From positions 1,869-65,868 of the forward strand of contig JAJRZK010000012.1 in assembly GCA_024275315.1 (NCBI GenBank): DNA of 64,000 bases, in the 5' to 3' direction. This DNA is from Nitrospirota bacterium. GTDB lineage: Bacteria; Nitrospinota_A; UBA7883. Below, piece by piece: positions 8,856 to 52,113 of this stretch (position 1 is its first letter; each line of letters begins with the position of its first letter). Under the pieces are notes generated by a model. That model made no database searches. It was not told the DNA's origin and saw nothing but the letters and a program-made list of their open reading frames with translations. The position numbers and the translations under genes are program-made.

Positions 8856-8918
8856 CGCTTTTTTACGGGGGCTGGCGGGTGAGCGCGGTTTTTACCGATG
8901 GTCATTAAGAGCTCCGCC

Positions 8919-8942
8919 GGGCCGATTCTCGGGCCGATTCTG
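8919..8942. repeat. 12-bp tandem repeat, 2 copies (gggccgattct[c/g])
   Basis: Copies at 8919-8930 and 8931-8942, in the same spacer as the 17-bp repeat. Confidence 0.85.
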
Positions 8943-8953
8943 CCTGACGTTGG

Positions 8954-9742
8954 CTATATTTCCTCGGCGAATGTCTCTTTGCTTATGTCGAATCGGTAAA
9001 AACCGATCAGCGTGCAACAGACGCCCAGGGCGAAAATCAGGAGCATGGAAAACAGGTCCGGCGTTTTGGCGTAGATGAAAATGTCATGATAGCTCATCGT
9101 CAGCACAGCCATGGGATTAAGGTAGAAAGTGAACCGGTACGCTTCAGGGGTCACGGAGACCGGGTATATGATCGGGCACATGAAAAACCACAGGACGATG
9201 AAGTTGTTCAGGATATGCTGGATGTCCCGGAAGCGCACGTTTAGCGAGGAGAGAAAATAGACCAGCCCGGTGGTGAACAAAAGCTGGGCGAAAGCCACCA
9301 CCGGCAACCATAACAGCTTGGATGTAAACTCTATATCGAACCAGAGCATGAAGGCGAAAAGGAGGGGAAGGCTGAAAACGTAATTGGCCAGGTTCGACAA
9401 TATTTTCACCATCGGCAGGATTTCCGCCGGGAACATCGACTTTGTAATCAGCGCGCCGGACGCGGTTACCGAGTTCACCCCCTCCATCATCGAGGTGGAG
9501 AACCATATCCACGGCAACAGCCCCGTGAACATGAACACAGTATAGTTTTCCATCTCCATCCGCATGTATACCGAGAAAACCAGGGCGTAAACCAGAAGAA
9601 GTAACAGAGGATTCAGGAAAGTCCAGAGCATGCCGAGAGCGGAGCCGCGGTACCGGGCCTTGAGCTCTTTGGACACAAGGCTGATTACAAGCTCTCTGTA
9701 TCGCAAAAGCGTTTTGATGTTGTCGGTGAAGGAGCGGAGCAT
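8954..9742 (-). CDS. ABC-2 type (polysaccharide/teichoic-acid-export type) transporter permease
   Basis: 262 aa with 6 hydrophobic segments. The N-terminal motif L..EL+ARYRGS.LG..W..L.P is typical of Wzm/TagG/KpsM permeases. Confidence 0.8.
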   Translation of the reverse strand: MLRSFTDNIKTLLRYRELVISLVSKELKARYRGSALGMLWTFLNPLLLLLVYALVFSVYMRMEMENYTVFMFTGLLPWIWFSTSMMEGVNSVTASGALITKSMFPAEILPMVKILSNLANYVFSLPLLFAFMLWFDIEFTSKLLWLPVVAFAQLLFTTGLVYFLSSLNVRFRDIQHILNNFIVLWFFMCPIIYPVSVTPEAYRFTFYLNPMAVLTMSYHDIFIYAKTPDLFSMLLIFALGVCCTLIGFYRFDISKETFAEEI

Positions 9743-9874
9743 TACCCTGGGTTTTTAGCGGCGGACGCGCACAGATCCGGTTTTTGTTTTCATCGGGCGA
9801 TTATAGGCAATACCGGTCCGTCGATCAACAAATCCCGGGGGACCGGATTATGGCGCCCCTGATTTTCGCCCTGT

Positions 9875-10330
9875 CTATCCACCGATCAGGCTGGAATGCT
9901 CTATCTTCATGCATCGGTCCTGGACGACGGTGACACCCCCGTCACGCAGTCTGGCCGCGGCTTCGTTGTTGACTATCCCGAGTTGGAACCAGGCGCACGC
10001 CGGTTTACAGGCGAGAATATCGTCCACCATTTCGTTTATCGCTTCAGGCTTGCGAAAGATATCCACTACATCCACCCGCCCGGGGATATCGGCCGGGCTG
10101 TCGTACGCCTTCAACCCTTCCCATTGGGAGATGGCGGGGTTTACCGGGATAACATTGTAACCATGGTCATTAAGGTATCTCCCCACATCTCCCGACGCTC
10201 TGCCCGGTTTTTGTGAGACGCCGACTATGGCTATATTCTTTGATGTCTCTAAGATGGCCTTGATCTGTTCCGGTTCCGGGTTCTGGTCCGGGGCCGGAGG
10301 CCTGTTCGTTATGTCGCATGCTTCGGTCAT
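9875..10330 (-). CDS. CoA-binding domain protein (YccU-like)
   Basis: 151 aa. IAIVG.S....R.S..V..YL...GY.V.PVNP and later W.Q.G..N..A match the CoA_binding_2 pattern. Confidence 0.8.
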   Translation of the reverse strand: MTEACDITNRPPAPDQNPEPEQIKAILETSKNIAIVGVSQKPGRASGDVGRYLNDHGYNVIPVNPAISQWEGLKAYDSPADIPGRVDVVDIFRKPEAINEMVDDILACKPACAWFQLGIVNNEAAARLRDGGVTVVQDRCMKIEHSSLIGG

Positions 10331-10346
10331 TGGTTTGGTCCTGTGA

Positions 10347-10589
10347 TCAGGGGTTGCGGATTATTTTTTCTTTCAGGAACGCGTTGAGCTTGTCAGACAC
10401 ATCCGGCGGGATTTCGGGCGTTACATGTTTAACCCCCCCGAACAACTCGACGGTTCTTCTCAAGGTGTTGATAAACGCCACGCATGGCTCACAATCCTCG
10501 ATGTGCCTTTCGATCTCATCGCACAAGGATGGGTCTACTTCCTTGTCGATATACTCGCTTAGCTTTTCAAGTATTTCCTGGCATTTCAT
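10347..10589 (-). CDS. anti-sigma factor, zinc-finger (HxxxCxxC) type
   Basis: 80 aa with the H-x3-C-x2-C motif (RHIEDCEPC). It overlaps the upstream ECF sigma gene stop by 4 nt. Confidence 0.7.
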   Translation of the reverse strand: MKCQEILEKLSEYIDKEVDPSLCDEIERHIEDCEPCVAFINTLRRTVELFGGVKHVTPEIPPDVSDKLNAFLKEKIIRNP

Positions 10590-11242
10590 TTGACCGAACC
10601 TGTTTTGGTATGTTCTAAAGCTCCTTCGAAATAGACTGACAACTCGTCCCTTACAAAAATCCTGGCCCTGTGAAGCCGGGATTTTACCGCCGCCACGGTC
10701 ATGCCCATCATCTGGCTGATCTCGATATTGCTATACCCTTCCACGTCCTTGAGAATCAACACCGCGCGCTTGTCTTCCGGCAGTTTTGCGATGGTATTGT
10801 CCAAAACCATGCGGATTTCGTCGTTGCTGTATTGTAACGACGGATTTTTCGACCAGTCGACAATTTCCCTGGTGAGCTTGGATCCGTTGAATTCAATCGG
10901 TTTGTCTATGGAGACCGCGATCATTTTTTTTCGTTTTCTGAGCCTCATCAGACAGTTGTTGGTGGCTATTTTCAACAACCAGGTGGAAAACGCGGCCTCG
11001 CCCCTGAATTTATCCAGGGATTTGTGAACTTGCAAAAACGTTTCCTGCAATATATCCTCCGCGTCCTCTTTACTATTGAGGAACTTGAGGCCGTGACTGT
11101 ATACCCTGGCTTGGTATTTGCGGACAAGCTCCTCGAAAGCGCTGTAGTCGCCGTTTTTTATCCGAACGATCAGCGCTTCGTCTTTTTCCTTTTCAGAGAC
11201 GTGGCAGGCCGTCTGCTTGTCACTGCGTTGCGCTCCTGCCAT
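10586..11242 (-). CDS. ECF-family RNA polymerase sigma factor
   Basis: 218 aa with sigma70 region 2 (..ED..QETFLQV...L..F.G...F.TWL..IA.N) and region 4 (L.L.DVEG.S..EI...MG.....VKSRL.RAR). Confidence 0.9.
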   Translation of the reverse strand: MAGAQRSDKQTACHVSEKEKDEALIVRIKNGDYSAFEELVRKYQARVYSHGLKFLNSKEDAEDILQETFLQVHKSLDKFRGEAAFSTWLLKIATNNCLMRLRKRKKMIAVSIDKPIEFNGSKLTREIVDWSKNPSLQYSNDEIRMVLDNTIAKLPEDKRAVLILKDVEGYSNIEISQMMGMTVAAVKSRLHRARIFVRDELSVYFEGALEHTKTGSVK

Positions 11243-11455
11243 ATTACGATGCTTGGCTTTTCAAAAAGGTTCAGTTGCTTCTGTAAGGTTGATCGTACCA
11301 GTTATCGCATCATTGCTCAAGCCGGGCCGAACCGGCAAAATCTGGGTGTTTCATATTAATACGATTCCCGCGTTGATATAGTGATGAATTGTGTTTAGAA
11401 TAGCCAAATCAAAACGCCGGGATTAGTTACCTTCAGGGGGAAGATCGCAACAGAT

Positions 11456-12610
11456 ATGAAGATGGACAGCAAACTGAAAATCCTGGTGGTCGACGACATG
11501 CCCAACATGCGCAAAACCATCAAGAACATGCTTCGTTCCATAGGATACACATCCGTTTCCGAAGCCTCGGATGGGGGGGAGGCGTTTGAGAAAATACAGT
11601 CCGGCAATTTCAATTTGGTTATCTCGGACTGGAACATGCCGGTGATGAACGGGATACAACTCCTGAAAAAGACCAGGCGGGATATCGACCTCAAATCGGT
11701 GCTGTTCATCATGGTGACCGCGGAAATAAGCGAAGAACAGATCGCCCACGCCGCCGAAACCGAAGTGGATGGATATATCATCAAGCCTTTCAACTCCACC
11801 ACGTTAAAGAAAAAGATCGAAAGCGTGCTGGAGCGACAGTCGAAGCCGTCGCCGATCGACGCGATTATAAACCTCAGCAGGGCCATGGTGGAATCGGGCG
11901 AACACGAAAAGGCGCTTGCCGCTCTTAAGCAGGCGCGGGTGCAGTTTCCGAAATCGGCGAGGTTGTTCGTCTCGATCGGCGAAACGCTGGAGGCCATGGG
12001 TAAGACGCACAGGGCGGTCGAGGCTTATGAACAGGCCAAAGACGTAAATCCCCAGTTTGTAAAAGCCTCCCAGAAGCTGGGGGAGCTTTATCTGAAAAAT
12101 AACGACACCAAAAGCGCAATGATCCACCTGGAAGAGGCGACAAAGATATCGCCTTATGATTCCCAAAGGCAATTGTCGCTGGGAAAACTCTATCTGGAGA
12201 ATGGAGAGGCCAACAAGGCGCGACAGGCGTTTAAGAACGCCCAGAAAACCGACGAGTCGGACACTGATATCCACAAGGAGATTGGCGAAGCGTATATGGA
12301 AGCGGGGATGGAAGAGTTCGCCGTTCAGGCGTTCAAGCGAGCCATTGATTCTGACCCGAGTATGATCCATCTGTATAATCGTCTCGGTATTGCGTTGAGG
12401 CGCAAAGGGAGATACCAGGAAGCGATAGAAGAATATATGCGCGCGCTGGAGGTGGCCCCTGACGACGAGGCGCTATACTTCAACCTGACCAAGGCGTACC
12501 TGGAGATGGGCAGGAAAAACGAGGCTAAAGAAACGATTCTCAAGGCGCTCCAGATAGACCAGGATTTCGAAGAGGCCAAGCAGTTGCTCGCCATTATCGA
12601 AAAGAAATAG
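11456..12610 (+). CDS. CheY-like response regulator receiver fused to TPR repeats
   Basis: Canonical receiver (ILVVDD...LVISDWNMPVMNG...KPF) followed by about 6 TPR-like A..Y..A...P motifs. Confidence 0.85.
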   Translation: MKMDSKLKILVVDDMPNMRKTIKNMLRSIGYTSVSEASDGGEAFEKIQSGNFNLVISDWNMPVMNGIQLLKKTRRDIDLKSVLFIMVTAEISEEQIAHAAETEVDGYIIKPFNSTTLKKKIESVLERQSKPSPIDAIINLSRAMVESGEHEKALAALKQARVQFPKSARLFVSIGETLEAMGKTHRAVEAYEQAKDVNPQFVKASQKLGELYLKNNDTKSAMIHLEEATKISPYDSQRQLSLGKLYLENGEANKARQAFKNAQKTDESDTDIHKEIGEAYMEAGMEEFAVQAFKRAIDSDPSMIHLYNRLGIALRRKGRYQEAIEEYMRALEVAPDDEALYFNLTKAYLEMGRKNEAKETILKALQIDQDFEEAKQLLAIIEKK

Positions 12611-12622
12611 CCCCTGGTTTCG

Positions 12623-13768
12623 CTATTCGTAGAATGATTTCATGTAATCCATGATAAGACCCGCCGCGCGGCTTGATCCGCCTGGTTCACCCAACGTCGC
12701 GGCTACTTTTCCCAGCTCTTTTCTCATCGATTTGCGCCTGGACGGATCATGCAGAAACGATAGCGCTGTTTTGGCGATGTTCGAGGGGGTCATCTCTCCC
12801 TGGATAAGCTCCGGGACAATCTCCTTTTGCGCCAGCAGGTTCGGCAACCCGGCCCATTTGACATGAGAGATGGATTTCGCGAGGAGGTAGGAGAACCAGT
12901 CCGACTTGTAAACGATCACCATGGGCGTGCCGGCTATGGTGGCCTGGAGCGTCGAGGTGCCCGACTTGCAAATGAGAAAATCGCACGCGTTGATTATCTC
13001 CCATGTCTTGCCGCTGACGACGGCCGCCTCTTCGCCCATATCACCGACGATACGTCTTACCAGCGCCGGGTCGATCGAATCCGCGCACGGGATCACCACC
13101 TTTACCGGCTTGGACGCTCGTATGATTTTTACGGCGTCTACCATGGCTGGAAGAATCCGGACCACCTCGCCGTTCCTGGAGCCGGGCATAAGGCCGAGCA
13201 TCGTATGGCGCCGGTCGATTCCCAGTTCTTCACGTATCGCGCCGGGGTCGGCCACCGGTGGCAATTCGTCGAGCAGGGGATGGCCGACGAAATGCGCCCT
13301 GACTCCGTTTTTTTCGTACAGCCTCTCCTCGAACGGGAATACGACGATCATCATGTCCACCAGCCTGCCTACAGACTTTATCCTGTATCTGCGCCACGCC
13401 CAGAACTGGGGGCACACATAATAAAAAACCGGGATGCCGGCGGCGTCGCAGGCCTTGGCGATACGCACATTGAAATCGGGATAATCTATGAGTATCGCCG
13501 CGTCATACTCCGATGCGGCTATCCTGCTCCTGAAATCGTCCAGCACGCCTTTTATAAACCGCAGTTTGCCAACCATGGACGCCACACCCACAGAGGAGAC
13601 TTTTGATATGTCGTAAAGGGTTGCGCCTCCCGCCCGACGCAACCGCTCGCCGCCGAGTCCCTCGATCCTGATGTCCGGCGCAAGTTTCAGGATGTGGCGG
13701 CATATCCTGCCGGCGTACAGGTCGCCCGATTCCTCGCCTGCCACTAAAAGAAGTTTTCTCTGTTTCAT
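12623..13768 (-). CDS. lpxB: lipid-A-disaccharide synthase
   Basis: 381 aa. LLVAGEESGDLYA..., YYV.PQ.WAWR..R, LPGSR..E and L.KSGT.TL are all LpxB hallmarks. Confidence 0.9.
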   Translation of the reverse strand: MKQRKLLLVAGEESGDLYAGRICRHILKLAPDIRIEGLGGERLRRAGGATLYDISKVSSVGVASMVGKLRFIKGVLDDFRSRIAASEYDAAILIDYPDFNVRIAKACDAAGIPVFYYVCPQFWAWRRYRIKSVGRLVDMMIVVFPFEERLYEKNGVRAHFVGHPLLDELPPVADPGAIREELGIDRRHTMLGLMPGSRNGEVVRILPAMVDAVKIIRASKPVKVVIPCADSIDPALVRRIVGDMGEEAAVVSGKTWEIINACDFLICKSGTSTLQATIAGTPMVIVYKSDWFSYLLAKSISHVKWAGLPNLLAQKEIVPELIQGEMTPSNIAKTALSFLHDPSRRKSMRKELGKVAATLGEPGGSSRAAGLIMDYMKSFYE

Positions 13769-13774
13769 TGCCGC

Positions 13775-14482
13775 CTAGCGCACGGAGAACAAAATTTGCC
13801 AGACCCGGACAACGGCTTCCAAAAATATCCTACGGGACATCTTCGATTTGCCGCCGGCCCTCTCGGTGAACACGATGGGTATCTCCCTGATCCTGAGGTT
13901 TTTCTTATAGGCCCGGTATGTCATCTCTATCTGAAACGAGTACCCTTCGGAATAGACGGAATCCAGGTCGATCGCTTCGAGCGTTTCGCGGCGGAAACAT
14001 TTGAACCCGCCGGTAAGGTCTCTTATGGGAACAGACAGGATTGTGCGGGCGTAAAAACTGCCGCCCATGGAGATCATCTTGCGCAGGAACGACCAGTTTT
14101 CCACTCCTCCTCCATCGACATAGCGCGAGCCTATGACCAGGTCCGCGTCCTCGATGGCTTCCAGAAACCGGGGAAGGTATTCCGGGTTGTGGGAAAAATC
14201 GGCGTCCATTTCGAAAATATAGTCGAAATCCTTTTCCAGCGCGTATCTAAAGCCTGAAATATAGGCTGTGCCCAGGCCCAGTTTCCCCGACCTCTTTAAC
14301 AGGTGCAACCGGCTGTTGCTGTGCATGAGCCGCTCCACAACGGCTCCGGTGCCGTCGGGAGAGTTGTCGTCGACCACCAGAATGGACGTATCCGGCAGAT
14401 GAGAGCCGATCAGTCCGATCAGTCTTTCTATATTTTCGACCTCGTTGTAGGTCGGGATGATAACCAGGCTCTTGGAATTCAT
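13775..14482 (-). CDS. GT2 polyprenol-phosphate mannose/glucose synthase (Dpm1-like)
   Basis: The N-terminus SLVIIPTYNE..NI, then VVDDNSPDGT and DADFSH. I prefer ATG at complement(14480..14482) over the TTG at 14515 used by the track. Confidence 0.85.
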   Translation of the reverse strand: MNSKSLVIIPTYNEVENIERLIGLIGSHLPDTSILVVDDNSPDGTGAVVERLMHSNSRLHLLKRSGKLGLGTAYISGFRYALEKDFDYIFEMDADFSHNPEYLPRFLEAIEDADLVIGSRYVDGGGVENWSFLRKMISMGGSFYARTILSVPIRDLTGGFKCFRRETLEAIDLDSVYSEGYSFQIEMTYRAYKKNLRIREIPIVFTERAGGKSKMSRRIFLEAVVRVWQILFSVR

Positions 14483-14769
14483 AGTTGGGCATTCTAATGG
14501 ATGGGGTTTGTGCAAGTAAAGGACAGCTTCGGTCCCGGGACCAAAAAGGCTGGTTTGGTTGATTACTTACCATGATTGTTACGGTCCGGGACAGGCGGTT
14601 AACCGGCTCTGATTTTTCCCGGATTTCCAGTTAAAACAAATAACAGCTTGATTTACTTTAATATTTACTCAAGTTTTGATAGGAAAGTGACGAAAATTAC
14701 TATATAACTAAACATACTTTGGCGGTAATGTGTGGAAATCGTGTGGTTATTTCCATATATTTGGTTAAA

Positions 14770-15402
14770 ATGAACCATATTTTACAGCAGGTCCCTATGG
14801 TTTACCGGGCTCTTTTTCGATCTACCTTGGTTTTGGCTCTTCTCTTTCTTTCCGCCTGTGTTGTCATGCCTGTAAAAGACGAAGGCGCGGTGAGGAATGC
14901 GATTGAAAAAATAGACGAGCAAATACAGGTGATCGCCATAGAGCTGAGCCATCGCATGAGGGAGTTCGATCCAAACAACAAATCCCTTGCGGTGACCACT
15001 TTTGTCGATCTGGACAACTTGTCCGAATCATCGTCTTTCGGCAGGTTTCTTGGCGAACAGCTATCGACCGAGTTGCACAAGCTCGGTTTCAACATAAGAG
15101 AGTTGCGGCAGCGAAAAACCATAGAAATCGTTCAGGACAAGGGCGAATTCGCGCTGACCAGGGAAGCGTCGGAGCTTATGAAGAAGTTCCAGGTAGACGC
15201 TGTCCTGGCCGGAACATACATGGTTGTCGGAGACGAGGTGGTCGTAAACGCGCGGGTTATAGATGTGGATTCGTCCCGGGTCATATCTGTCGGCCAGATG
15301 ATCACAAACCTCAGGGGGCTGGATCAGATCCGGGCGCTTCTGTCCCGAAGGTCACGTGGGTCGACTCCCATAGTAAAAGTTGTCAATCCTGAAAAGAGTT
15401 AG
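14770..15402 (+). CDS. FlgO-like domain lipoprotein (1 domain)
   Basis: Lipobox LFLSAC. Domain sequence: SLAVTTFVDLDNLSESSSFGRFLGEQLSTELHKLGFNIRELR...GEFALTRE...FQVDAVLAGTY...VVNARVIDV. An alternative start is ATG 14797. The family call is from memory of FlgO-family sequences and has not been searched. Confidence 0.6.
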   Translation: MNHILQQVPMVYRALFRSTLVLALLFLSACVVMPVKDEGAVRNAIEKIDEQIQVIAIELSHRMREFDPNNKSLAVTTFVDLDNLSESSSFGRFLGEQLSTELHKLGFNIRELRQRKTIEIVQDKGEFALTREASELMKKFQVDAVLAGTYMVVGDEVVVNARVIDVDSSRVISVGQMITNLRGLDQIRALLSRRSRGSTPIVKVVNPEKS

Positions 15403-15409
15403 GCGCGTT

Positions 15410-16603
15410 ATGAAAATCAGCATGGTGGTTTTTTTGTCAGTCATGATTATTTCGATCGCTGGTTGCGTCCGGTATCAAAAAGAGCCGGGGTTTCAAAGCG
15501 AGCTTGCAAGAGACCAGTACAGCCGATCGGCTTATGGTTATCATCCGGATAACTGGATTCCATACCATGAGCGGTATACGCAACGGTTCAAATGGAAGAT
15601 GCAGTATATCGCAAAACAGCTCGGGTCAAAGATGCTGACTCCTGAATCAAACGGTTCCACCGTGCTGATGACCACCATCGTGCCGGCGGACAACCTGTAC
15701 AAGGCCACCAGCTTCGGCAGGTTGTGCACGGAACAGCTTATCACCGAGCTGTCCAAACAGGGGTTCAAGGTTATAGAGGCCAGAAAAACGGATGTTTTTC
15801 TCATTCGTGACAACGAGGGGGAGTTTTCCCTGTCAAGGGACGCATACTGGCTCTCCCGGGAGTTCAAGGCGGATGCGGTGCTGGTGGGGGTCTATTCCAA
15901 ATCGGGGGGGCAGGCGCTGGTAAACGTCCGGCTGGTGGATAGCCGGGATTCTCATATACTCGGAACGGCCAGCGCTCATATGAATCTCAAGGGCGACAGG
16001 TTTCTTAATGAAATATTCCTCAAGGAGGCGAACGCGTCCAATACCGGAGGGGGGGGCTCGGGCGAGATGCGTATCAGAAAAAAGGTGGATGTCGAAAAGG
16101 ATTCTCACGCCGAGGTGCTCGAGTACAAGCTGGGGAACATGGCTGGTGAAATAAAGGAGACTTCGGAGAAAAAAATAGGAAATGTGAAAACCATCGCCGT
16201 AACCACGTTCGTCGATGTGGACAACTTCTACCGGGCAACGACTTTCGGACGGTACATGACGGAGCAGCTCATGTACGAGCTTTACGAACTGGGGTATAAC
16301 GTTCTTGAAATACGTAATGCGCCTGATCTTTTCGTCGATCTGAGAATCGGGGAACTGGGGTTGAGCCGCGAGATGAGCCAGATCATGAGGAATCAAAAGG
16401 CGGACGCTGTTGTGGTGGGCACGTATACCAAGGGGGGGGATAGCATAGCGGTCAACTCCCGCCTGGTGATAGGAAAAACCCAGGAGGTTATCGGTATCGG
16501 CCAGATCATCGTTGATAGCAGTCCCAGAAACAAGTTCGTGACGGCTATGCTGAAAAACGAGGTTACAACGGTTATGCCAACAGAAATGGTCGAAGGGTTT
16601 TAG
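15410..16603 (+). CDS. FlgO-like domain lipoprotein (2 tandem domains)
   Basis: Signal peptide MKISMVVFLSVMIISIAGC (lipobox). There are two copies of the same module (...TSFGRLCTEQLITELSKQGFKVIEAR...GEFSLSRD...ADAVLVGVY and ...TTFGRYMTEQLMYELYELGYNVLEIR...GELGLSRE...ADAVVVGTY). The ATG lies 7 nt after the upstream stop. Confidence 0.6.
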   Translation: MKISMVVFLSVMIISIAGCVRYQKEPGFQSELARDQYSRSAYGYHPDNWIPYHERYTQRFKWKMQYIAKQLGSKMLTPESNGSTVLMTTIVPADNLYKATSFGRLCTEQLITELSKQGFKVIEARKTDVFLIRDNEGEFSLSRDAYWLSREFKADAVLVGVYSKSGGQALVNVRLVDSRDSHILGTASAHMNLKGDRFLNEIFLKEANASNTGGGGSGEMRIRKKVDVEKDSHAEVLEYKLGNMAGEIKETSEKKIGNVKTIAVTTFVDVDNFYRATTFGRYMTEQLMYELYELGYNVLEIRNAPDLFVDLRIGELGLSREMSQIMRNQKADAVVVGTYTKGGDSIAVNSRLVIGKTQEVIGIGQIIVDSSPRNKFVTAMLKNEVTTVMPTEMVEGF

Positions 16604-16605
16604 TT

Positions 16606-17055
16606 GCGATGTTCAACGAAAACAAGCTTCGTACATCGTCGCAAACGCCAGACACGGTTGACGGTTCGCGTGGTTCTATGGTGATGTTCAACGAAAACAC
16701 GCTTCGTACATCGTCGCAAACGCCAGACACGGCTGACGGTTCGCGTGGTTCTATGGTGATGTTCAACGAAAACACGCTTCGTACATTGTCGCAAACGCCA
16801 GACGCCGCTGACGGTTCGAGTGGTTCTATGGTGATGTTCAACGAAAACACGCTTCGTACATCGTCGCAAACGCCAGACGCCGCTGATGGTTCGCGTGGTT
16901 CTATGGTGATGTTCAACGAAAACACGCTTCGTACATCGTCGCAAACGCCAGACACGGCTGATGGTTCGCGTGGTTCTATGGTGATGTTCAACGAAAACAC
17001 GCTTCGTACATTGTCGCAAACGCCAGACACGGCTGATGGTTCGCGTGGTTCTATG
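16606..17055. repeat. 75-bp tandem repeat, 6 complete copies (plus a degenerate start of a 7th at 17056-17070)
   Basis: Unit boundaries are 16606, 16681, 16756, 16831, 16906 and 16981. Only six variable columns differ among the copies. The array is open in three frames (track ORFs 16609..17085 +, 16572..17132 -, 16600..17235 -). Confidence 0.95.
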
Positions 17056-17077
17056 GCAATGCTCGAAAGGTCCGATC

Positions 17078-17614
17078 GTGTATAGGTATTTGCTTTGGGT
17101 GATGGTAGCCGGGTCTGTTCTGGCGGTTTCATGCGTCACTCCCACAAACATGGGACCGCACAACTCCGACCAGTTCGGGGCCGGGTATATGGTAAGCATA
17201 ATCCGTGACCAGCTCCGGCATCCGGAGGTTCTCAATCAGCCGATTATCGTGACTACTTTCGTTGACCTGAACAACCTCGACAAATCGTCGATCTTTGGCC
17301 GGGTGCTGGCGGAGGAGCTGTTAAACGAGCTTCACCAGGCCGGGTTTACCGTGTCGGAAATAAGAAAAGGCAGGGACATCTTCATCCGCAAAGAACTGGG
17401 GGAGATGATTCTTTCGCGTAACGCCAGGGAGATATTGGGCAAGTCGAGCGCCCGCGCGATCCTGGCGGGCACATACGTGGCCACGGCGAAAACGATAATC
17501 ATCAACGCAAGGTTGATAGACATAAACAGTCCGCTGATACTTTCGTCGTGTTCCTACTCCTTGAAAATGAACAAGGAGCTTCAGAACATGATAACCGGCG
17601 AGTCGCCTTTTTAG
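17078..17614 (+). CDS. FlgO-like domain lipoprotein (1 domain)
   Basis: GTG 17078 is preceded by GAAAGG (17065-17070). The signal peptide (V)YRYLLWVMVAGSVLAVSC has a lipobox. Domain sequence: IIVTTFVDLNNLDKSSIFGRVLAEELLNELHQAGFTVSEIR...GEMILSRN...ARAILAGTY...IINARLIDI. Confidence 0.6.
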   Translation: MYRYLLWVMVAGSVLAVSCVTPTNMGPHNSDQFGAGYMVSIIRDQLRHPEVLNQPIIVTTFVDLNNLDKSSIFGRVLAEELLNELHQAGFTVSEIRKGRDIFIRKELGEMILSRNAREILGKSSARAILAGTYVATAKTIIINARLIDINSPLILSSCSYSLKMNKELQNMITGESPF

Positions 17615-17626
17615 GAGCGTCATACA

Positions 17627-18103
17627 ATGAGGAAAAGGTTACTTTTTCTGATCATCATCGCCACCGCGGTCGGGTTTGCGCCGGTACAGGCGTCTGCCAA
17701 GAAGGGGGCCAATATCATAAGTTCGCCCGACGTTCCTACCGCGTCGGGACCGGTTACTGCAGGGGGCGCGAAAGTCCCCAAGGGTATGGGGCCTGACACC
17801 GTGGAGAGCGAAAAGGCGGTCATCACCACGACTCCCATGCCACTGGTCATACGTAAAGTGACGGTGCTGATAGAGTCGACGCCCACCAATTCCGGCATCG
17901 AGGTCAACGGTGTTTATATCGGGACCACACCTTTGCAGGTAACCCTGAAAGAGGGGGTGCATCACATGAAGGTGCGAAAAGAGGGGTATTTGCCCTGGGT
18001 GCGGACTGTCAAGGCGTATAACGGGCTATATGTCAGCGCAGACCTGGTCAAGGAATCCACCATCAAACGGGACGTCACGCAAAGCGCCACGGCCACCCAA
18101 TAG
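17627..18103 (+). CDS. secreted PEGA-domain protein
   Basis: Signal peptide MRKRLLFLIIIATAVGFAPVQASA. The C-terminal I.STP..(A/S)GI.VNG.Y.G.TPL...L.EG.H...V.KEGY..W fits the PEGA pattern. Confidence 0.75.
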   Translation: MRKRLLFLIIIATAVGFAPVQASAKKGANIISSPDVPTASGPVTAGGAKVPKGMGPDTVESEKAVITTTPMPLVIRKVTVLIESTPTNSGIEVNGVYIGTTPLQVTLKEGVHHMKVRKEGYLPWVRTVKAYNGLYVSADLVKESTIKRDVTQSATATQ

Positions 18104-18212
18104 TTCTCGTTGGGCGCGCCTCCCGCCCGATATCCTGTGGCAGGGCGCCACCTCATCGATCAGGCTTGTTGTGGAGTTTCGTTACGGCGGGGTTTACAAT
18201 AGCCTACCTATA

Positions 18213-20351
18213 ATGAAAACAGGCGATGAACTTGTGGCGGGAACCTCCATAAAACTCGACTCACCGATCATGTATCTCAAAGGCGTCGGCCCGAAAAGGG
18301 CCGAACTGCTCGGGAAATTGGGGATTTTCACCGTCCAGGATCTGTTGTTCCACTTCCCGGTCCGTTACGAGGACAGGACCAGGGTTATGACCATATCGGA
18401 AGTGGAGGTGGACAACGTGGCCGTGGTCCGGGCGAGGGTAAAATCGACCTCCGTCGCGCCAAGGGGGAGGGGGCGGAGGCGTGTGTTCGAGGTGGCGTTT
18501 GCGGACAAGACAGGCGTTTTGCGGGCGTCGTGGTTCAACTTTTCTGAAAAGGCGCTCAAAAGCAGGTTCTCAATCGGCTCGGAATGGATAGTCTCCGGCA
18601 AGGTCACCATCAACAGGTATCGCGGGTCGAAGATCATCGTCCATCCTGACACTGAAAAAGTGGAGAAGGTGGAGGATGGGGAATCGTTAAGCCTTGGCTG
18701 TGTAGCGCCCGTATATCCCCTGACCGATGGATTGAGCCAGAAAGCGGTCAGGAAAATCGTCCGCACGGCTCTCGATCTTGCGGAGAGCATAGAAGATTTC
18801 GTCCCCCGATACCTAAACGAAAAATACAATCTGCCGCCGCTGAACGAAAGTGTCAGGCGCGTGCATTGGCCGGACAGTTCAAGCGATCTGTCCAGGCTTG
18901 GCAGGTTCCAGGCGCCGGAACAGAAAAAACTGATATTCAACGAGTTTTTCCTGGTCCAGTCCGGACTGGCCCTAAAACGCAATATCGCGCGCAAAGAGCA
19001 AAAAGGCTCCGCTCTTAAAGCAGGGCCGGAACTGATGGGAAAAATCAAATCCATCTTCCCGTTCAGGCTTACCGATGCGCAGGAGAGGGTATTGATGGAA
19101 ATCGCCGGGGACGTGGGCAAGGACCGGCCCATGAACCGGCTTCTCCAGGGGGATGTGGGGTCCGGCAAAACCGCGGTTGCGCTCGGGGCGGCCCTGATCG
19201 CCGTGTGGAACAGGAAACAGGCGGCCATCATGGCCCCGACGGAGATACTGGCCACCCAGCATTACAGGAATATCACCCAATTGCTTAGGAAAACAAAAGT
19301 GGAGGTGGTGTTGCTGACTTCAGGTTCCGCGGGCAGGAAGGAGGCGTATGCGAACATAGCCGATGGAACAACCCACATCGCCATAGGCACCCACGCCCTG
19401 ATCCAGTCGGATGTAAAGTTTCACGATCTCGGGCTGGTCGTGGTCGACGAACAACACCGGTTCGGCGTGATGCAACGGGCGGAGCTGATGAAAAAGGGGA
19501 TCCGTCCACACACTCTCATTATGACCGCCACACCAATTCCGCGCACACTGGCCATGACGTTGTATGGCGACCTGGACGTGTCGGTTATAGACCAGCAACC
19601 GCCGGGACGCGCGCCGATAACCACTACCATTATCGGACCAGCGCAACGATCTGCGGCCATATCGATCATACAGGACCAGGTGGCCATGGGACGGCAGGCG
19701 TATATCGTCTACCCGCTGGTGGAGGAGAGCGAAAAGCTGGAGCTTAAGGCCGCGACAACCATGTTTGAGCGTTTTTCCACCGGGGATTTCGCCGGACTGC
19801 GTGTTGGCCTTTCCCACGGTCGCATGAAGAGTTCGGAAAAAGAGGAGGTGATGGAGCGGTTCTCCAAAGGCGAGGTGGACATCCTGGTTTCGACAACGGT
19901 GATAGAGGTGGGCGTGGACCAGCCAAACGCGACCGTGATGATGGTCGAGCACGCCGACAGGTTCGGACTGAGCCAGCTCCACCAGCTACGGGGCAGGGTG
20001 GGGCGAAGCCATCATCGGTCATACTGTCTGCTGATGGCGGACACCTATCCCGGCTCGCCCGCGTGGGAGCGGTTGCGGGTCATGGAAAAGACCATGGACG
20101 GGTTTACGATAGCGGAGGCGGATCTGGACCAGAGGGGCGCCGGGGATTTTTTCGGATCAAGACAGTCAGGCCTGCCGGAGTTCAGGATCGGCGATATTCT
20201 GCGTGATTACAAAATATTGGCGGAAGCCAGAAAAGCGGCTTTTAAACTGGTCGACAACGACCCTCACCTGGGAAAGCCGGAACACTCCATTCTTCGGCGT
20301 GCGCTGAAAGAGCGCTGGAAACACAAGTTCGAACTCGGTGACATAGGGTAA
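18213..20351 (+). CDS. recG: ATP-dependent DNA helicase RecG
   Basis: Wedge-domain start (YLKGVGPKRAELL..LGI.T..DLL.HFP.RYEDR), then Walker A GDVGSGKT, DEQHRFGV and QLRGRVGR. I use ATG 18213 because the track's upstream 61 codons look non-coding. Confidence 0.9.
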   Translation: MKTGDELVAGTSIKLDSPIMYLKGVGPKRAELLGKLGIFTVQDLLFHFPVRYEDRTRVMTISEVEVDNVAVVRARVKSTSVAPRGRGRRRVFEVAFADKTGVLRASWFNFSEKALKSRFSIGSEWIVSGKVTINRYRGSKIIVHPDTEKVEKVEDGESLSLGCVAPVYPLTDGLSQKAVRKIVRTALDLAESIEDFVPRYLNEKYNLPPLNESVRRVHWPDSSSDLSRLGRFQAPEQKKLIFNEFFLVQSGLALKRNIARKEQKGSALKAGPELMGKIKSIFPFRLTDAQERVLMEIAGDVGKDRPMNRLLQGDVGSGKTAVALGAALIAVWNRKQAAIMAPTEILATQHYRNITQLLRKTKVEVVLLTSGSAGRKEAYANIADGTTHIAIGTHALIQSDVKFHDLGLVVVDEQHRFGVMQRAELMKKGIRPHTLIMTATPIPRTLAMTLYGDLDVSVIDQQPPGRAPITTTIIGPAQRSAAISIIQDQVAMGRQAYIVYPLVEESEKLELKAATTMFERFSTGDFAGLRVGLSHGRMKSSEKEEVMERFSKGEVDILVSTTVIEVGVDQPNATVMMVEHADRFGLSQLHQLRGRVGRSHHRSYCLLMADTYPGSPAWERLRVMEKTMDGFTIAEADLDQRGAGDFFGSRQSGLPEFRIGDILRDYKILAEARKAAFKLVDNDPHLGKPEHSILRRALKERWKHKFELGDIG

Positions 20352-20373
20352 CCCCGCCTGTGTTTGCGTGGAC

Positions 20374-21321
20374 TTACTCTCCCCAAACCCTTGTATCCGG
20401 GTTGAAGGCGTACCAGGCGAACCAGAAACCGACGGTGGCGGGGAGTTGGGCTCCGTCGGTGTCGGTGATGTAGGCGGTGGACGAGTCCTCGTCGAAATGG
20501 ACCAGTATGGACACGCCGCCAACGGTGTCTTTAACCGGCGTTTCCGCTTTTTTCAACCTTGAGAATAAATACGCCATTGCGTCTCCGTTTCGCCTGATCC
20601 CGATAACCGTCTCCTTGTTGTCGAACCGCTGATTTTTTTCCGTCACGGGGAACATCAACCTGTCGGTGGCGTTATACCTGTCGAATGGATCTGTGTCGTA
20701 GTCCCTTTTGTATCCGGTGTCGGGGGTCAGAGCCACGGTGTCAGGCCGTTCCCGTTTCCAGCGTCCCCATGTTGTGTTCACCACCGGCAGAAGTTTCAGT
20801 TTCGTTCCGCTCATTTTTCCCGTCACCGCCTTACCGGCGATCTGGGACCATAACGATCCTGTCTGGTGGTCGTACAACAGCATGTCGCTTTCGTATAACA
20901 GGCCCGACACGCCGAAAGTATATTCCCTGCCGTCGATTGACCTGTCGAACATCATGCCGGTTCCGCACAGGGGACAGAATGTTATGATCACCGGGCGGCC
21001 GTTGACATGGTCGTTTACCAGCTCGTGCCAGTTCAGGATTTTCACGGGATAGGCCCGGCTGACGCCGTCGAGGGTGAACGCGAGCACACGGTCGGTCTCT
21101 TTCAGAAAAGAGCCGGCGTTTTCCACGGTCGCAAACTTCGGTTTCAGGATGGCCGGTATACCGTCTTTGGGCGGGCCGCCGCTCATGATCTTGTGTTTTG
21201 GAACGAGGCTGTTTTTCAGGTCAAAACCGGCGGTGGAAGCGCAGGACAGGCTCCACGACACACCAATGATGGCGCACAGCAAAACCGCGCCCGCCACCGG
21301 CGATGAAAGATTTGACCGCAT
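20374..21321 (-). CDS. DUF3179 domain protein (secreted)
   Basis: 315 aa. DGIPAI..P.F.....A..L...D.V......G...AYP...L.WHE.VND...G.P...T.CPLCG. Confidence 0.8.
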   Translation of the reverse strand: MRSNLSSPVAGAVLLCAIIGVSWSLSCASTAGFDLKNSLVPKHKIMSGGPPKDGIPAILKPKFATVENAGSFLKETDRVLAFTLDGVSRAYPVKILNWHELVNDHVNGRPVIITFCPLCGTGMMFDRSIDGREYTFGVSGLLYESDMLLYDHQTGSLWSQIAGKAVTGKMSGTKLKLLPVVNTTWGRWKRERPDTVALTPDTGYKRDYDTDPFDRYNATDRLMFPVTEKNQRFDNKETVIGIRRNGDAMAYLFSRLKKAETPVKDTVGGVSILVHFDEDSSTAYITDTDGAQLPATVGFWFAWYAFNPDTRVWGE

Positions 21322-21427
21322 ATTAAAAGTGATTCGTCACAAATGAGGCCAATGCCCGTTTCACGCTTGTAAAAACATCCCCGGCGCCACCTGTCGAAAC
21401 CGGTCCCGACGGGGTGACCATACGTTT

Positions 21428-21483
21428 CTCAACATTTACATGTTTCTCAACAACATTCACATGTTGCTCAACATTCACATGTT
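21428..21483. promoter_or_regulatory. three tandem copies of a 14-bp palindrome AACAT-N4-ATGTT (period 18-21 bp)
   Basis: ctcaacatttacatgtt (21428-21444), ctcaacaacattcacatgtt (21446-21465) and ctcaacattcacatgtt (21467-21483). The array overlaps the sixA stop and lies 105-160 nt upstream of the DUF3179 gene start. Confidence 0.4.
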
Positions 21484-21945
21484 TTGCGACATCCGTGGGT
21501 TTATGGCCCATAAAATGATCCAGCCTCCGCTTTCCGTCCTTTCCAGACACACGAGGGAGCACGTGTCAAACATGACTATATCCCAGGTGTCGCCGCCGGT
21601 GACAAGTTCGGACGCCAGCTTGCTCATAAAAGGCATGTGACCCACCAGCATGGTGTCTTTCGACAACCGGCCAACCAGATCCGCAACGCCCCTCACCGGA
21701 TCCATCGGGCGCAGACCTTCCATACGCTCAATTTCCTGACCCGGCGCCACAACCCCCGCCATTATCCGGGCTGTCTGGGCGGCCCTGGTTTTGCCGCTGT
21801 GGTTGATCCGGGCGATCCGGACGCCGCAATCACCCAGAAACCTGGCGACTGTTTCCGCTTCTTTGCGGCCCCGTCCGCTCAGCGGACAATCAGGATTCAA
21901 TTCTTTTGGCTCTGCCTCTCCATGCCGGACCAGGTATAATTTCAT
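21475..21945 (-). CDS. sixA: phosphohistidine phosphatase SixA
   Basis: MKLYLVRHGEA.... L...G..EA......L...G......HS...RA.QTA (the RHG histidine-phosphatase motif). The start is taken at the conserved MKLYLVRHG. Confidence 0.8.
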   Translation of the reverse strand: MKLYLVRHGEAEPKELNPDCPLSGRGRKEAETVARFLGDCGVRIARINHSGKTRAAQTARIMAGVVAPGQEIERMEGLRPMDPVRGVADLVGRLSKDTMLVGHMPFMSKLASELVTGGDTWDIVMFDTCSLVCLERTESGGWIILWAINPRMSQNM

Positions 21946-22131
21946 GGATAAAATCTTTCGTATTCGCGACAATCAGGGGAAATTCCGCAATATTTTAATT
22001 GGTTCGGGTTATTTTCATAGTAACATTTAACATTATGAATACAAAACACAAGCCACGACTATTGGTGGTGGACGACGAGGAAGACAACCTGAAGGTTGTT
22101 CAAAGCAGGTTGAACAGTAACATTTAACATT

Positions 22132-23532
<1,401 letters not shown>

Positions 23533-52037: not shown

Positions 52038-52113
<76 letters not shown>

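What the first reader, a model, noticed from the sequence alone, without database searches (positions are those of the whole stretch)
16606..17085. Six in-phase 75-bp tandem repeats exactly fill the gap between two operon genes and form an operon-packed repeat ORF
**Seen directly**
- Positions 16606-17055 are six head-to-tail copies of a 75-bp unit: gtgatgttcaacgaaaacacgcttcgtacatcgtcgcaaacgccagacacggctgacggttcgcgtggttctatg.
- Only six columns vary between copies: aag/acg, tcg/ttg, acg/gcc, gtt/gct, gac/gat, cgt/agt.
- A degenerate seventh start (gcaatgctcgaaagg) follows at 17056-17070.
- The array begins 3 nt after the TAG stop of the two-domain FlgO-like gene (16601-16603).
- It ends at the RBS and start of the next FlgO-like gene (GAAAGG 17065-17070, GTG 17078).
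- 75 nt is 25 codons, and three of the six frames have no stop, which explains the three long ORFs in the track.
- The sense-strand ORF (16609..17085) starts at an ATG 5 nt after the upstream stop and ends 8 nt inside the next gene. That is the packing of a real operon member.
- It would encode six copies of MFNENTLRTSSQTPDTADGSRGSMV, which is hydrophilic and has no signal peptide. Every neighbouring product is a lipoprotein or secreted protein.

**Against coding**
- Only one of the six variable columns (gac/gat) is synonymous in that frame.
- I see only one weak 5-bp hairpin per unit (ACGAA...TTCGT).

**Interpretation (inference)**
The near-identity of the copies implies recent expansion or concerted evolution. 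The array could be any of the following:
- a disordered 25-aa-repeat protein;
- a copy-number-variable spacer that tunes expression of the downstream lipoprotein genes;
- a multi-site RNA or DNA binding platform.
Basis: partly seen in the sequence, partly recalled or inferred. Interest (0 to 1): 0.75.

Follow-up and report, generated by a model that had tools for sequence, protein, structure and literature searches.

The report
Minisatellite inside a lipoprotein operon
A 75-bp sequence repeated six times has expanded the normally tiny gap between two co-transcribed envelope-lipoprotein genes of a Nitrospinota bacterium; it behaves like a fast-evolving bacterial minisatellite (similar in layout to the MIRU repeats of the tuberculosis bacillus), not like a conserved gene or a structured RNA.

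Summary
Window 16606-17055 holds six head-to-tail 75-bp units (96% matches), between the TAG of a two-domain FlgO-like gene and the SD/GTG of the next FlgO-like gene.

The closest relative I could find (L001, flanking proteins 93-96% identical) has a homologous but diverged array at the same spot (78+78+75 bp). Six more distant Nitrospinota loci have only 5-52 nt there. So this is a lineage-specific, copy-number-variable minisatellite.

The 158-aa ORF is not good evidence for a gene:
- With a 3n period, a given frame of a random 75-mer of this composition is open 55% of the time.
- Its codon usage is non-genic.
- pN/pS is 0.6-0.7, against 0.07-0.13 in the flanking genes.
- It has no credible homologue and no confident fold.

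No RNA structure, Rfam match, promoter-like or terminator-like site was found.

Best reading: an intergenic minisatellite, MIRU-like in layout, that is tolerated because all units are 3n. One ORF starts 5 nt after the upstream stop and ends 8 nt into the downstream gene, so ribosomes could bridge the long spacer. That step is inferred, not shown.

One thing stays unexplained: 12-nt and 20-nt blocks are identical between the two genomes, while a 16-nt block between them is almost completely different.

Interest is modest.

The parts
14676..14703 (+). Promoter-like site (TTGATA-16-TACTAT) upstream of the first FlgO-like gene; candidate operon promoter
   Evidence: Consensus scan. It lies inside a block that is identical in L001, while the surrounding intergenic DNA differs. 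Function is inferred.
14866..15402 (+). First FlgO-like lipoprotein gene of the operon. The start is placed by homology with the L001 gene; a longer ORF starts at 14719.
   Evidence: Pfam PF17680 FlgO, E = 6.6e-36. 93.8% aa identity to the L001 gene, dN/dS about 0.07.
15410..16603 (+). Two-domain FlgO-like gene ending in ...VEGF-TAG (16601-16603)
   Evidence: Pfam FlgO, two stretches, E = 9.5e-61. 93% identical to P0001 (397 aa). The C-terminal ...EGF-stop is conserved in L001, L002, L003, L008 and L009, so the array is not a C-terminal extension.
16606..17055 (.). Six head-to-tail 75-bp units (starts 16606, 16681, 16756, 16831, 16906, 16981); 8 variable nucleotide columns
   Evidence: TRF: period 75, 6.0 copies, 96% matches. 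Units listed. Unique in the window.
16681..16692 (+). Example (unit 2) of the 12-nt block GTGATGTTCAAC, invariant in all three unit types of both genomes
   Evidence: Three-way comparison. The longest invariant run is 12, p = 0.016 by column shuffling.
16693..16708 (+). Example (unit 2) of the 16-nt hypervariable block (GAAAACACGCTTCGTA here; CACCCTTTCCACCACG in L001). It contains the weak ACGAA/TTCGT hairpin.
   Evidence: Only 3 of 16 positions are identical between the window and L001 unit types, p about 1e-4. The hairpin is not conserved in L001.
16709..16728 (+). Example (unit 2) of the 20-nt core CATCGTCGCAAACGCCAGAC, identical in the window units and in L001 units 1-2
   Evidence: Run of 20 identities, p = 0.005. 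Unique to the array in the window. Only chance single hits in GTDB species genomes and JGI metagenomes.
16609..17085 (+). Array-spanning ORF of 158 aa (MFNENTLRTSSQTPDTADGSRGSMV x6 plus MLERSDRV). It starts 5 nt after the upstream TAG, and its stop TAG (17083-17085) overlaps the downstream GTG gene by 8 nt.
   Evidence: ORF list. The same geometry and frame occur in L001 (85 aa). Codon usage is non-genic, pN/pS is 0.59-0.70, there is no credible homologue, and AF2 mean pLDDT is 52.
17056..17085 (+). Degenerate partial seventh unit, equivalent to the native leader of the downstream gene: ATG 17059, SD GAAAGG 17065-17070, GTG start 17078, ORF stop 17083-17085
   Evidence: Sequence. Conserved in L001 as GCTATGTTGGAAAGGCGCGATCGTGTATAGG.
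17078..17614 (+). Third FlgO-like lipoprotein gene (GTG start; signal peptide MYRYLLWVMVAGSVLAVSC)
   Evidence: Pfam FlgO, E = 5e-35. 96% aa identity to L001, dN/dS about 0.07. Homologues lie directly downstream of the two-domain gene in relatives.
17627..18103 (+). PEGA-domain lipoprotein gene, last gene of the operon
   Evidence: Pfam PF08308 PEGA, E = 5.4e-15. Same position in L001, L002, L003, L010 and L012.

Best explanation
The array is a lineage-specific intergenic minisatellite (VNTR). A roughly 75-bp segment next to the translation start of the third FlgO-like gene was duplicated in tandem in the common ancestor of this genome and L001. Since then it has turned over by slippage or unequal exchange. 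That homogenises units within each genome and lets the two genomes drift apart in unit sequence (75 vs 78 bp) and copy number (6 vs 3).

The array sits inside a tight FlgO-FlgO2-FlgO-PEGA operon whose other junctions are 7 and 12 nt, so it is almost certainly transcribed as part of the polycistronic mRNA (inferred).

It is probably tolerated because every unit is a multiple of 3 and stop-free in one sense frame. One ORF then starts 5 nt after the upstream stop and terminates 8 nt inside the downstream gene, on top of its SD and GTG. Ribosomes leaving the upstream gene could re-initiate, translate across the 474-nt spacer and be delivered to the downstream start. This would keep translational coupling and shield the spacer RNA from Rho-type polarity (inferred; the same logic has been proposed for mycobacterial MIRUs).

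The 25-aa-repeat peptide itself is most likely a by-product with no conserved function.
For: **Shown**
- The array is real and unique in the window.
- A homologous array sits at the identical position in L001, with a different unit type and copy number and the same junction sequences.
- The gap is 5-52 nt, with no array, in L002, L003, L008, L010/L011 and L012.
- Units are 69-72% identical between genomes. Collinear DNA is about 88% identical overall, and synonymous sites in the flanking genes differ at pS 0.25-0.35. The units therefore diverge at about the neutral rate or faster.
- Protein-level constraint is weak or absent. pN/pS is 0.59-0.70 against 0.07-0.13 in the flanks, only 2 of 9 within-array variants are synonymous, and codon usage sits in the bottom 0-3% of real coding windows.
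- There is no homologue by word search. Exhaustive HMMER gives only repeat-versus-repeat matches.
- There is no RNA-structure signal (z = -1.0 to +1.6 for one or two units), no conserved hairpin, and nothing in Rfam.
- There is no promoter-like or terminator-like site in the array.
- All observed unit lengths (75, 78, 78, 75) are 3n, and the sense frame, its ATG and its overlapping stop are the same in both genomes.

**From the literature**
- MIRUs are 40-100-bp tandem units in intergenic regions of operons. An internal ORF is coupled to the downstream gene, which is thought to minimise the effect of insertion (PMC12548453; PMC2734929; PMC3635867).
- The rnc-fpg1 gap is 358/303/279 bp with repeats in the M. 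tuberculosis complex and 1-54 bp in other mycobacteria. That is the same pattern as here.
- Coupling efficiency falls quickly with stop-start distance, and untranslated RNA is a Rho target.
Against: - The translated-bridge step is not demonstrated.
- An open sense frame is expected by chance 55% of the time for a 3n unit of this composition. It would survive 23 random substitutions 56-65% of the time.
- One antisense frame is also open in both genomes.
- The only non-trivial statistic is that all unit lengths are 3n, roughly 1/9 by chance.
- The downstream gene has its own SD (GAAAGG, 7 nt before GTG) and may not need coupling.
- The SD-like GAAGGG before the ORF's ATG is 12 nt away, which is sub-optimal.
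- GC skew of the array is about 0, so it is not an obvious C-rich rut site.
- A purely neutral model does not explain why the 12-nt and 20-nt blocks are identical between genomes while the 16 nt between them are 81% different.
- Only two genomes carry the array, so all comparative statistics are weak.
Confidence: 0.5

Rival explanations
1. Neutral junk minisatellite. The array is a slippage product with no effect that matters. The ORF is incidental and either not translated or irrelevant. The downstream gene initiates on its own SD/GTG and transcription simply reads through.
For: - Open frames are the chance expectation for a 3n unit.
- Divergence is at the neutral level, pN/pS is near 1, and codon usage is non-genic.
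- The downstream gene has its own SD, conserved in L001.
- The same window holds a fresh 97-bp tandem duplication (not 3n) of another gene's 5' end at 22019-22214. Such duplications therefore arise readily in this genome.
Against: - All four observed unit lengths are 3n, and the single length difference is a 3-nt indel.
- The array has persisted in two lineages separated by dS of about 0.3-0.5.
- The 12-nt and 20-nt blocks are perfectly conserved, against neutral expectation (0.7^32 is about 1e-5; run test p = 0.005).
Confidence: 0.25
2. Cis-acting binding platform. The conserved 12-nt (GTGATGTTCAAC) and 20-nt (CATCGTCGCAAACGCCAGAC) blocks are repeated DNA or RNA binding sites for a regulator, spaced every 75-78 nt. 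Copy number sets how much factor is recruited and so tunes expression of the downstream lipoprotein genes.
For: - These blocks are identical at the nucleotide level between genomes, including about 10 third-codon positions, while flanking-gene synonymous sites differ at 25-35%.
- The sequence between them is free to change.
- The MIRU-containing senX3-regX3 spacer has been reported to have promoter activity (PMC4213456).
Against: - The motifs occur nowhere else in the 64-kb window or in the L001 locus, so there is no regulon-like distribution.
- There is no promoter-like match and no RNA structure.
- The older third L001 unit has 4 changes in the 20-nt core.
- No candidate binding protein is encoded next to the array.
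Confidence: 0.12
3. Genuine small protein. The ORF encodes a functional, fast-evolving, intrinsically disordered (or beta-solenoid-like) 25/26-aa repeat protein that works with the FlgO/PEGA envelope lipoproteins.
For: - The frame, ATG and stop are conserved in two genomes, and the indel is in frame.
- Motifs MFN, SSQTPD and DG-RGS are shared, with three synonymous differences in DG-RGS.
- The sense frame has the lowest pN/pS of the six frames in two of three comparisons (0.59-0.70).
- The packing is operon-like.
Against: - pN/pS is 5-10 times higher than in the flanking genes.
- Codon usage falls in the bottom 0-3% of real coding windows.
- There is no homologue by word search in 5.8e9 proteins. 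HMMER hits are repeat-inflated matches to unrelated giant repeat proteins, through an FNxNTLxT motif that L001's version lacks.
- The ORF was not called by the gene finder in L001.
- AF2 gives no residue with pLDDT of 70 or more.
- There is no signal peptide, although all the operon partners are exported.
- The ORF is absent from all more distant relatives that keep the operon.
- Pfam 'hits' have zero domain-level stretches.
Confidence: 0.1
4. Assembly artefact: the array, or its copy number, was created by mis-assembly of short reads.
For: A 450-bp array of 96%-identical 75-bp units is hard to resolve with short reads, so the exact copy number is not guaranteed.
Against: - An independent assembly from another sample (L001, JGI 3300013233) has a homologous array at the same position.
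- The six units carry a mosaic of 8 variant columns that anchor them.
Confidence: 0.03

Closest known systems
MIRU-VNTR minisatellites of the Mycobacterium tuberculosis complex (for example the senX3-regX3 spacer, and ETR-F/VNTR3239 between rnc and fpg1)
   Same: - Units of 40-100 bp in head-to-tail arrays, inside intergenic spacers of co-oriented, co-transcribed genes.
- Present only in a narrow lineage, while relatives have a gap of a few nt.
- Copy number differs between relatives.
- An ORF inside the repeats abuts the upstream stop and overlaps the downstream start, which suggests translational coupling.
- Function is otherwise unknown.
   Different: - No sequence relationship was tested, and the host phylum is different (Nitrospinota).
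- MIRUs are dispersed at 41 loci and thought to be mobile, inserting at start codons with -4 spacing. Here only one locus is known, and the geometry is +5 / -8.
- Here a single long ORF runs through all units.
- Units here are exactly 3n. The 77-bp and 53-bp senX3-regX3 MIRUs are not.
In-frame coding minisatellites of bacterial surface and secreted proteins (3n tandem repeats whose number varies between strains)
   Same: The period is 3n, the copies are near-identical, copy number changes without frameshift, and the repeat peptide is hydrophilic.
   Different: - Those repeats lie inside a gene that has a signal peptide, anchoring domains and recognisable homologues. This array lies between two complete genes.
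- The ORF consists of nothing but the repeats, has no export signal, and shows no purifying selection.
Intercistronic repetitive elements of enterobacterial operons (REP/BIME, ERIC). Compared from general knowledge, not tested here.
   Same: They sit between genes of one operon and are co-transcribed.
   Different: Those are palindromic, form stable RNA hairpins, are dispersed in hundreds of copies and are not long tandem arrays. This unit has no significant fold and is unique to one locus.

Membership tests
MIRU-type intergenic minisatellite | Tandem units of 40-100 bp | tested here: met
   75 bp x 6; 78+78+75 bp in L001. Definition taken from PMC2734929.
MIRU-type intergenic minisatellite | Located in the spacer between co-oriented genes of an operon, with relatives having only a short gap | tested here: met
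   Lies between two FlgO-like genes whose other junctions are 7 and 12 nt. The gap is 5-52 nt in six relatives.
MIRU-type intergenic minisatellite | Internal ORF whose ends abut or overlap the flanking stop and start codons (potential translational coupling) | tested here: met
   ATG 5 nt after the TAG, and an 8-nt overlap with the GTG gene, in both genomes. This is geometry only; translation was not tested. MIRUs are described with -4 spacing.
MIRU-type intergenic minisatellite | Dispersed at many loci of the genome (41 in H37Rv) | tested here: inconclusive
   There is no other copy in the 64-kb window, in the L001 locus, in GTDB species genomes or in JGI metagenome contigs. Neither this genome nor L001's contig turned up in those collections, so the rest of the genome is unseen.
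MIRU-type intergenic minisatellite | Copy-number polymorphism between strains | tested here: inconclusive
   6 vs 3 copies, but between two genomes about 12% apart in DNA, not between strains.
MIRU-type intergenic minisatellite | Sequence homology to the MIRU consensus, and a mycobacterial host | not tested
   No MIRU sequence was compared. All protein relatives of the flanking genes are labelled Nitrospinae/Nitrospinota, so this can only be an analogue, not a family member.
Protein-coding gene | Purifying selection at the amino-acid level | tested here: not met
   pN/pS is 0.59-0.70 over 25 codons, against 0.07-0.13 in the flanking genes. Only 2 of 9 within-array variants are synonymous.
Protein-coding gene | Codon usage like the genome's genes | tested here: not met
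   The sense-frame score is -0.07 to -0.27, against an in-frame mean of +0.37 (sd 0.22). That is the bottom 0-3% of real windows.
Protein-coding gene | Homologues or a recognised domain | tested here: not met
   - No hit in the word-indexed search.
- No NCBIfam or PDB hit.
- Pfam hits have 0 domain-level stretches.
- HMMER hits are repeat-versus-repeat only.
Protein-coding gene | Reading frame maintained across relatives | tested here: met
   The same frame, start and stop occur in L001. The chance expectation is high, 0.55-0.65.
Structured non-coding RNA / riboswitch / attenuator | Stable or conserved secondary structure, or a match to a known family | tested here: not met
   - z-scores are -1.0 to +1.6 for one or two units on both strands and in both genomes. 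The whole array folds worse than shuffles.
- The hairpin is not conserved in L001.
- Rfam gives nothing at the gathering threshold or at E <= 1.
- There is no terminator-like site.
CRISPR array | Repeats separated by unique spacers | tested here: not met
   Units are head-to-tail, and the variable block is the same in all units of one genome.

The most novel reading that the evidence does not exclude
The array is more than tolerated DNA. Its two perfectly conserved blocks and its hypervariable 16-nt block could reflect a functional module. One version is a translated repeat peptide with conserved MFN / SSQTPD / DG-RGS motifs and a diversifying segment. The other is a repeated binding site. Either way, copy number would set the stoichiometry of the downstream FlgO/PEGA envelope lipoproteins. 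This would be a MIRU-like, translation-coupled expression rheostat outside the Actinobacteria.
Probability: 0.15. Interest if true: 0.6.

Novelty: new member of a known kind. Interest (0 to 1): 0.3.

Why it matters
- If the translated-bridge idea holds, the MIRU solution is not a mycobacterial peculiarity. Making an intergenic expansion harmless by keeping it as one coupled ORF would be a general route by which operons tolerate minisatellites.
- Copy number could then tune downstream gene dosage.
- Practically, the locus is a warning for annotation. A 3n minisatellite yields a well-packed ORF, above-threshold whole-sequence Pfam scores and very low HMMER E-values without being a gene.
- It would also be a usable strain marker (VNTR) for this uncultured Nitrospinota lineage.

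Tried and rejected
- **Exact-protein look-ups of the window's own genes** found nothing. The window's proteins are not retrievable, so these results say nothing about whether the ORF was ever called.
- **Dispersed element.** The 20-nt core was scanned in GTDB species genomes and JGI metagenomes and gave four single hits. All have unrelated flanks and are chance matches. Plasmid blastn found nothing.
- **Structured RNA.** Rejected.
- **Internal promoter or terminator.** No consensus match, though non-sigma-70 promoters are not covered.
- **Antisense genes.** Two minus-strand frames are open here and one stays open in L001. Both run antisense into the flanking genes, have no promoter-like site and have pN/pS of 0.7-1.4. 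Rejected.
- **Read-through or extension of the upstream gene.** In the upstream gene's frame, a TGA closes every unit. Rejected.
- **N-terminal extension of the downstream gene from ATG 17036.** That ATG exists only in units 4-6, and in L001 the equivalent ATG is followed at once by TGA. Rejected.
- **Pfam hits of the ORF** (TerL_ATPase and others). These are whole-sequence scores summed over repeats, with 0 significant stretches. Artefact.
- **HMMER hits** (P0138 and others). Repeat-versus-repeat matches through FNxNTLxT or PDAADG-RG, and L001's unit lacks the first motif. Not homology.
- **DGR-type mutagenesis of the 16-nt block.** Changes are not limited to adenines, and no reverse transcriptase lies nearby. 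Judged by eye only; set aside.
- **Fold search.** Not run, because the model is low-confidence.
- **Origin of the unit from the 5' end of the downstream gene.** The L001 unit's 3' part matches codons 7-14 of that gene (p about 0.01), but the window unit does not (p = 0.67) and the offsets differ by about 12 nt. Kept only as a tentative idea.
Full report
**1. What is there**

Window 16606-17055 consists of six head-to-tail 75-bp units. TRF reports period 75, 6.0 copies, 96% matches and no indels; the sequence and unit list are. The unit is unique in the 64-kb window: a 42-nt probe, the 12-nt start and the 19-nt core each hit only the six copies, with about 0 expected by chance.

Eight nucleotide columns, in seven codons of the sense frame, vary among copies. 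They form a mosaic: TTG in units 3 and 6, GCC in units 3-4, GAT in units 4-6. That pattern points to exchange between units rather than one simple series of duplications.

The array starts 2 nt after the TAG (16601-16603) of a two-domain FlgO-like gene. A 22-nt leader follows it and carries GAAAGG (17065-17070) and then GTG 17078, the start of the next FlgO-like gene.

**2. Context**

Pfam identifies the neighbours as FlgO (14866-15402), FlgO x2 (15410-16603), FlgO (17078-17614) and PEGA (17627-18103). The other junctions in this cluster are 7 and 12 nt, so the 474-nt gap is the only large one.

A sigma-70-like site at 14676-14703 lies in a block identical to the relative L001. It is a plausible operon promoter. 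No promoter-like or terminator-like site falls in the array. Named homologues of the flanking proteins nearly all come from Nitrospinae/Nitrospinota metagenome bins.

**3. Relatives**

The closest relative found is a JGI contig, L001. Its FlgO2 is 93% identical and its FlgO_C 96%. It is collinear with window 7281-21343 at about 87-88% nt identity.

At exactly the same place L001 has a homologous array of 78 + 78 + 75 bp. It shares these features with the window:
- the same left junction (TTTTAGTTGCGATGTTCAAC);
- the same right leader (ATGYTBGAAAGG..CGATCGTGTATAGG);
- the same open sense frame.

Gap between the two-domain FlgO gene and the next FlgO gene:

| Locus | FlgO2 identity to window | Gap (nt) |
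|---|---|---|
| window | - | 474 (array) |
| L001 | 93% | 255 (array) |
| L008 | 61% | 21 |
| L002 | 58% | 14 |
| L003 | 58% | 13-52 |
| L012 | 53% | 26 |
| L010/L011 | 50% | 5 |

The six loci at 50-61% identity keep the operon and have no array. The array therefore arose in the common ancestor of the window genome and L001. Flanking-gene dS between those two is 0.30-0.48, and the array has since changed in unit sequence and copy number.

The 20-nt core was not found in any other real locus of GTDB species genomes or JGI metagenome contigs. The four single hits there have unrelated flanks. Plasmids gave nothing.

**4. Is the ORF a gene?**

The geometry is as described and is shared by L001: ATG 5 nt after the stop, and TAG overlapping the GTG gene by 8 nt. 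The evidence against a conserved gene is as follows.
- (a) For random 75-mers of this composition arranged as an array, a given frame is open 55% of the time, and 3 open frames out of 6 is the commonest outcome. After 23 random substitutions an open frame survives 47-65% of the time. One antisense frame also stays open in both genomes.
- (b) Sense-frame pN/pS between the three unit types is 0.59-0.70, against 0.07-0.13 for the four flanking genes. Differences are spread evenly over codon positions (7/7/9).
- (c) Codon-usage log-odds of the sense frame are -0.07 to -0.27. That is the bottom 0-3% of real 25-codon windows (mean +0.37) and is typical of off-frames.
- (d) There is no homologue in the word-indexed search and no NCBIfam or PDB match.
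- (e) The exhaustive HMMER search returned 24 hits. They are repeat-versus-repeat alignments to unrelated proteins. One is a 2499-aa protein with roughly 50-aa modules sharing FNxNTLxT; others are short ORFs that are themselves near-perfect repeats sharing PDAADG-RG. L001's unit lacks the FNxNTLxT motif.
- (f) The Pfam 'hits' have no significant domain-level stretch.
- (g) AlphaFold2 gives a mean pLDDT of 52 and no residue at 70 or above.
- (h) The gene finder did not call the 85-aa ORF in L001.

What remains in favour of the frame mattering is that every unit length seen (75, 78, 78, 75) is 3n and the one indel is 3 nt. That is roughly 1 in 9 by chance.

**5. Is it an RNA or DNA element?**

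One or two units, on either strand and in either genome, fold no better than dinucleotide shuffles (z from -1.0 to +1.6). The ACGAA/TTCGT hairpin lies in the block that is completely different in L001. The whole array folds worse than shuffles (z = +3.7), but that statistic is inflated for repeats. Rfam finds nothing at the gathering threshold or at E <= 1. GC content (0.52) equals the window average, and GC skew is about 0.

**6. An unexplained feature**

Between the window unit and the main L001 unit, 52 of 75 positions are identical, but very unevenly:
- GTGATGTTCAAC is 12/12 identical;
- CATCGTCGCAAACGCCAGAC is 20/20 identical (run test p = 0.005);
- the 16 nt between them are 3/16 identical (p about 1e-4), with no length change.

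Uniform neutral drift at pS of about 0.3 would give neither result. P(at least 13 of 16 differ) is about 3e-5, and P(0 of 32 differ) is about 1e-5.

There are three possible explanations:
- old unit variants were sorted differently in the two lineages, with constraint on the blocks;
- the blocks are binding sites;
- there is peptide-level constraint plus a diversifying segment.

Two genomes cannot decide between these.

**7. Possible origin**

The 3' third of the L001 unit resembles codons 7-14 of the downstream gene: TGGTGATGGTCGGCGGGGGTCTG against TGGTGCGATGGTCGCCGGGTCTG, p about 0.01 against shuffles. The window unit does not reach significance, and the offsets differ by about 12 nt.

The right-hand leader is a degenerate copy of the unit start (ATGCTCGAAAGG..CGTGTA against ATGTTCAACGAAAAC..CGTACA).

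The same window holds a fresh 97-bp x2 duplication of the leader and first 26 codons of a response-regulator gene at 22019-22214.

Together these suggest, tentatively, that the array was born as a tandem duplication spanning the 5' end of the downstream gene.

**8. Mechanism proposed**

Shown: this is a lineage-specific, copy-number-variable, fast-evolving minisatellite in the one long spacer of a tight operon.

Inferred:
- The array is co-transcribed with the operon.
- It persists because its 3n, stop-free units form one ORF from the upstream stop to the downstream start. Terminating ribosomes could re-initiate 5 nt downstream, translate the spacer and terminate on the SD/GTG of the next gene.
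- This would preserve coupling and prevent Rho loading on 474 nt of otherwise naked RNA.

The review PMC12548453 states that coupling drops sharply with stop-start distance, that untranslated RNA is the Rho substrate, and that MIRUs carry an ORF coupled to the downstream gene which likely minimises the cost of insertion.

**9. Comparison with known systems**

The closest analogue is MIRU-VNTR:
- MIRUs are 40-100-bp units at 41 loci, mostly intergenic within operons, with variable copy number.
- The rnc-fpg1 spacer is 279-358 bp with repeats in the M. tuberculosis complex and 1-54 bp in other mycobacteria. That distribution is the same as here.

Differences:
- the phylum is different, and no sequence relationship was tested;
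- only a single locus is known so far;
- one long ORF runs through all units, rather than unit-sized ORFs;
- the stop-start spacing is +5/-8, rather than -4.

It therefore works like a MIRU array but is not a member of that family. I file it as a new member of the general kind 'bacterial intergenic minisatellite'.

**10. Verdict**

The copy-number-variable spacer reading is supported as a description. A function for the array remains unproven.

Confidence:

| Claim or reading | Confidence |
|---|---|
| Real minisatellite arising locally (the part that is shown) | about 0.9 |
| Best reading: that minisatellite plus the translated-bridge mechanism (includes the inferred step) | 0.5 |
| Neutral junk | 0.25 |
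| Binding platform | 0.12 |
| Real protein | 0.10 |
| Assembly artefact | 0.03 |

Interest: 0.3.

Noticed in passing
window 22019-22214: A 97-bp x 2.0 tandem duplication (97% matches) copies the leader and first 26 codons of the 466-aa response-regulator-like gene at 22132..23532. The first copy forms a truncated 28-aa upstream ORF (MNTKHKPRLLVVDDEEDNLKVVQSRLNSNI*). 97 is not a multiple of 3. It may be a young example of the process that gave rise to the 75-bp array.
   Followed up: partly
window 26558-26643: A tandem array of a 16-bp unit, 5.4 copies (TGTGTCACGGACAC..; also scored as a 32-bp period). It looks like repeated half-palindromic sites and could be an operator or binding-site array.
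   Followed up: no
window 1909-1979, 8808-8854, 21424-21484, 37775-37840, 57757-57796: Five more short tandem arrays with 17-18-bp periods and 2-4 copies (TRF). This stretch of genome is fairly rich in micro- and minisatellites. None was examined.
   Followed up: no
window 14676-14703 and 14589-14637: In the divergent spacer between the glycosyltransferase gene and the first FlgO gene, a block of about 70 nt around the promoter-like TTGATA-16-TACTAT is identical to L001. A 49-nt segment (14589-14637) is present only in the window.
   Followed up: partly
window 17078 vs 17099: The automated gene call for the third FlgO gene starts at ATG 17099 (171 aa, P0071). In L001 the equivalent call is ATG 9474. 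That leaves an 11-residue pre-Cys peptide with no charged n-region. GTG 17078 (L001 9450), with an SD 7 nt upstream, gives a normal lipoprotein signal peptide.
   Followed up: partly
window 16609-17085 (protein-level searches): The repeat ORF scores above Pfam's whole-sequence cut-off for TerL_ATPase (30.2 vs 23.7 bits). It reaches E = 3e-20 in HMMER against a 2499-aa repeat protein, purely through summed repeat-versus-repeat matches. Several hits (P0142, P0148, P0158) are themselves near-perfect tandem-repeat ORFs of roughly 23-46 aa from other organisms that share PD..DG.RG-like motifs.
   Followed up: partly
L009 1484-1816: In one 61%-identical relative, the two-domain FlgO gene is followed by unrelated AT-richer DNA with no FlgO gene within 333 nt. 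The four-gene operon is therefore not universal in the clade.
   Followed up: no
window 52041-52113 (- strand): A tRNA gene is the only Rfam match at gathering threshold in the whole window.
   Followed up: no
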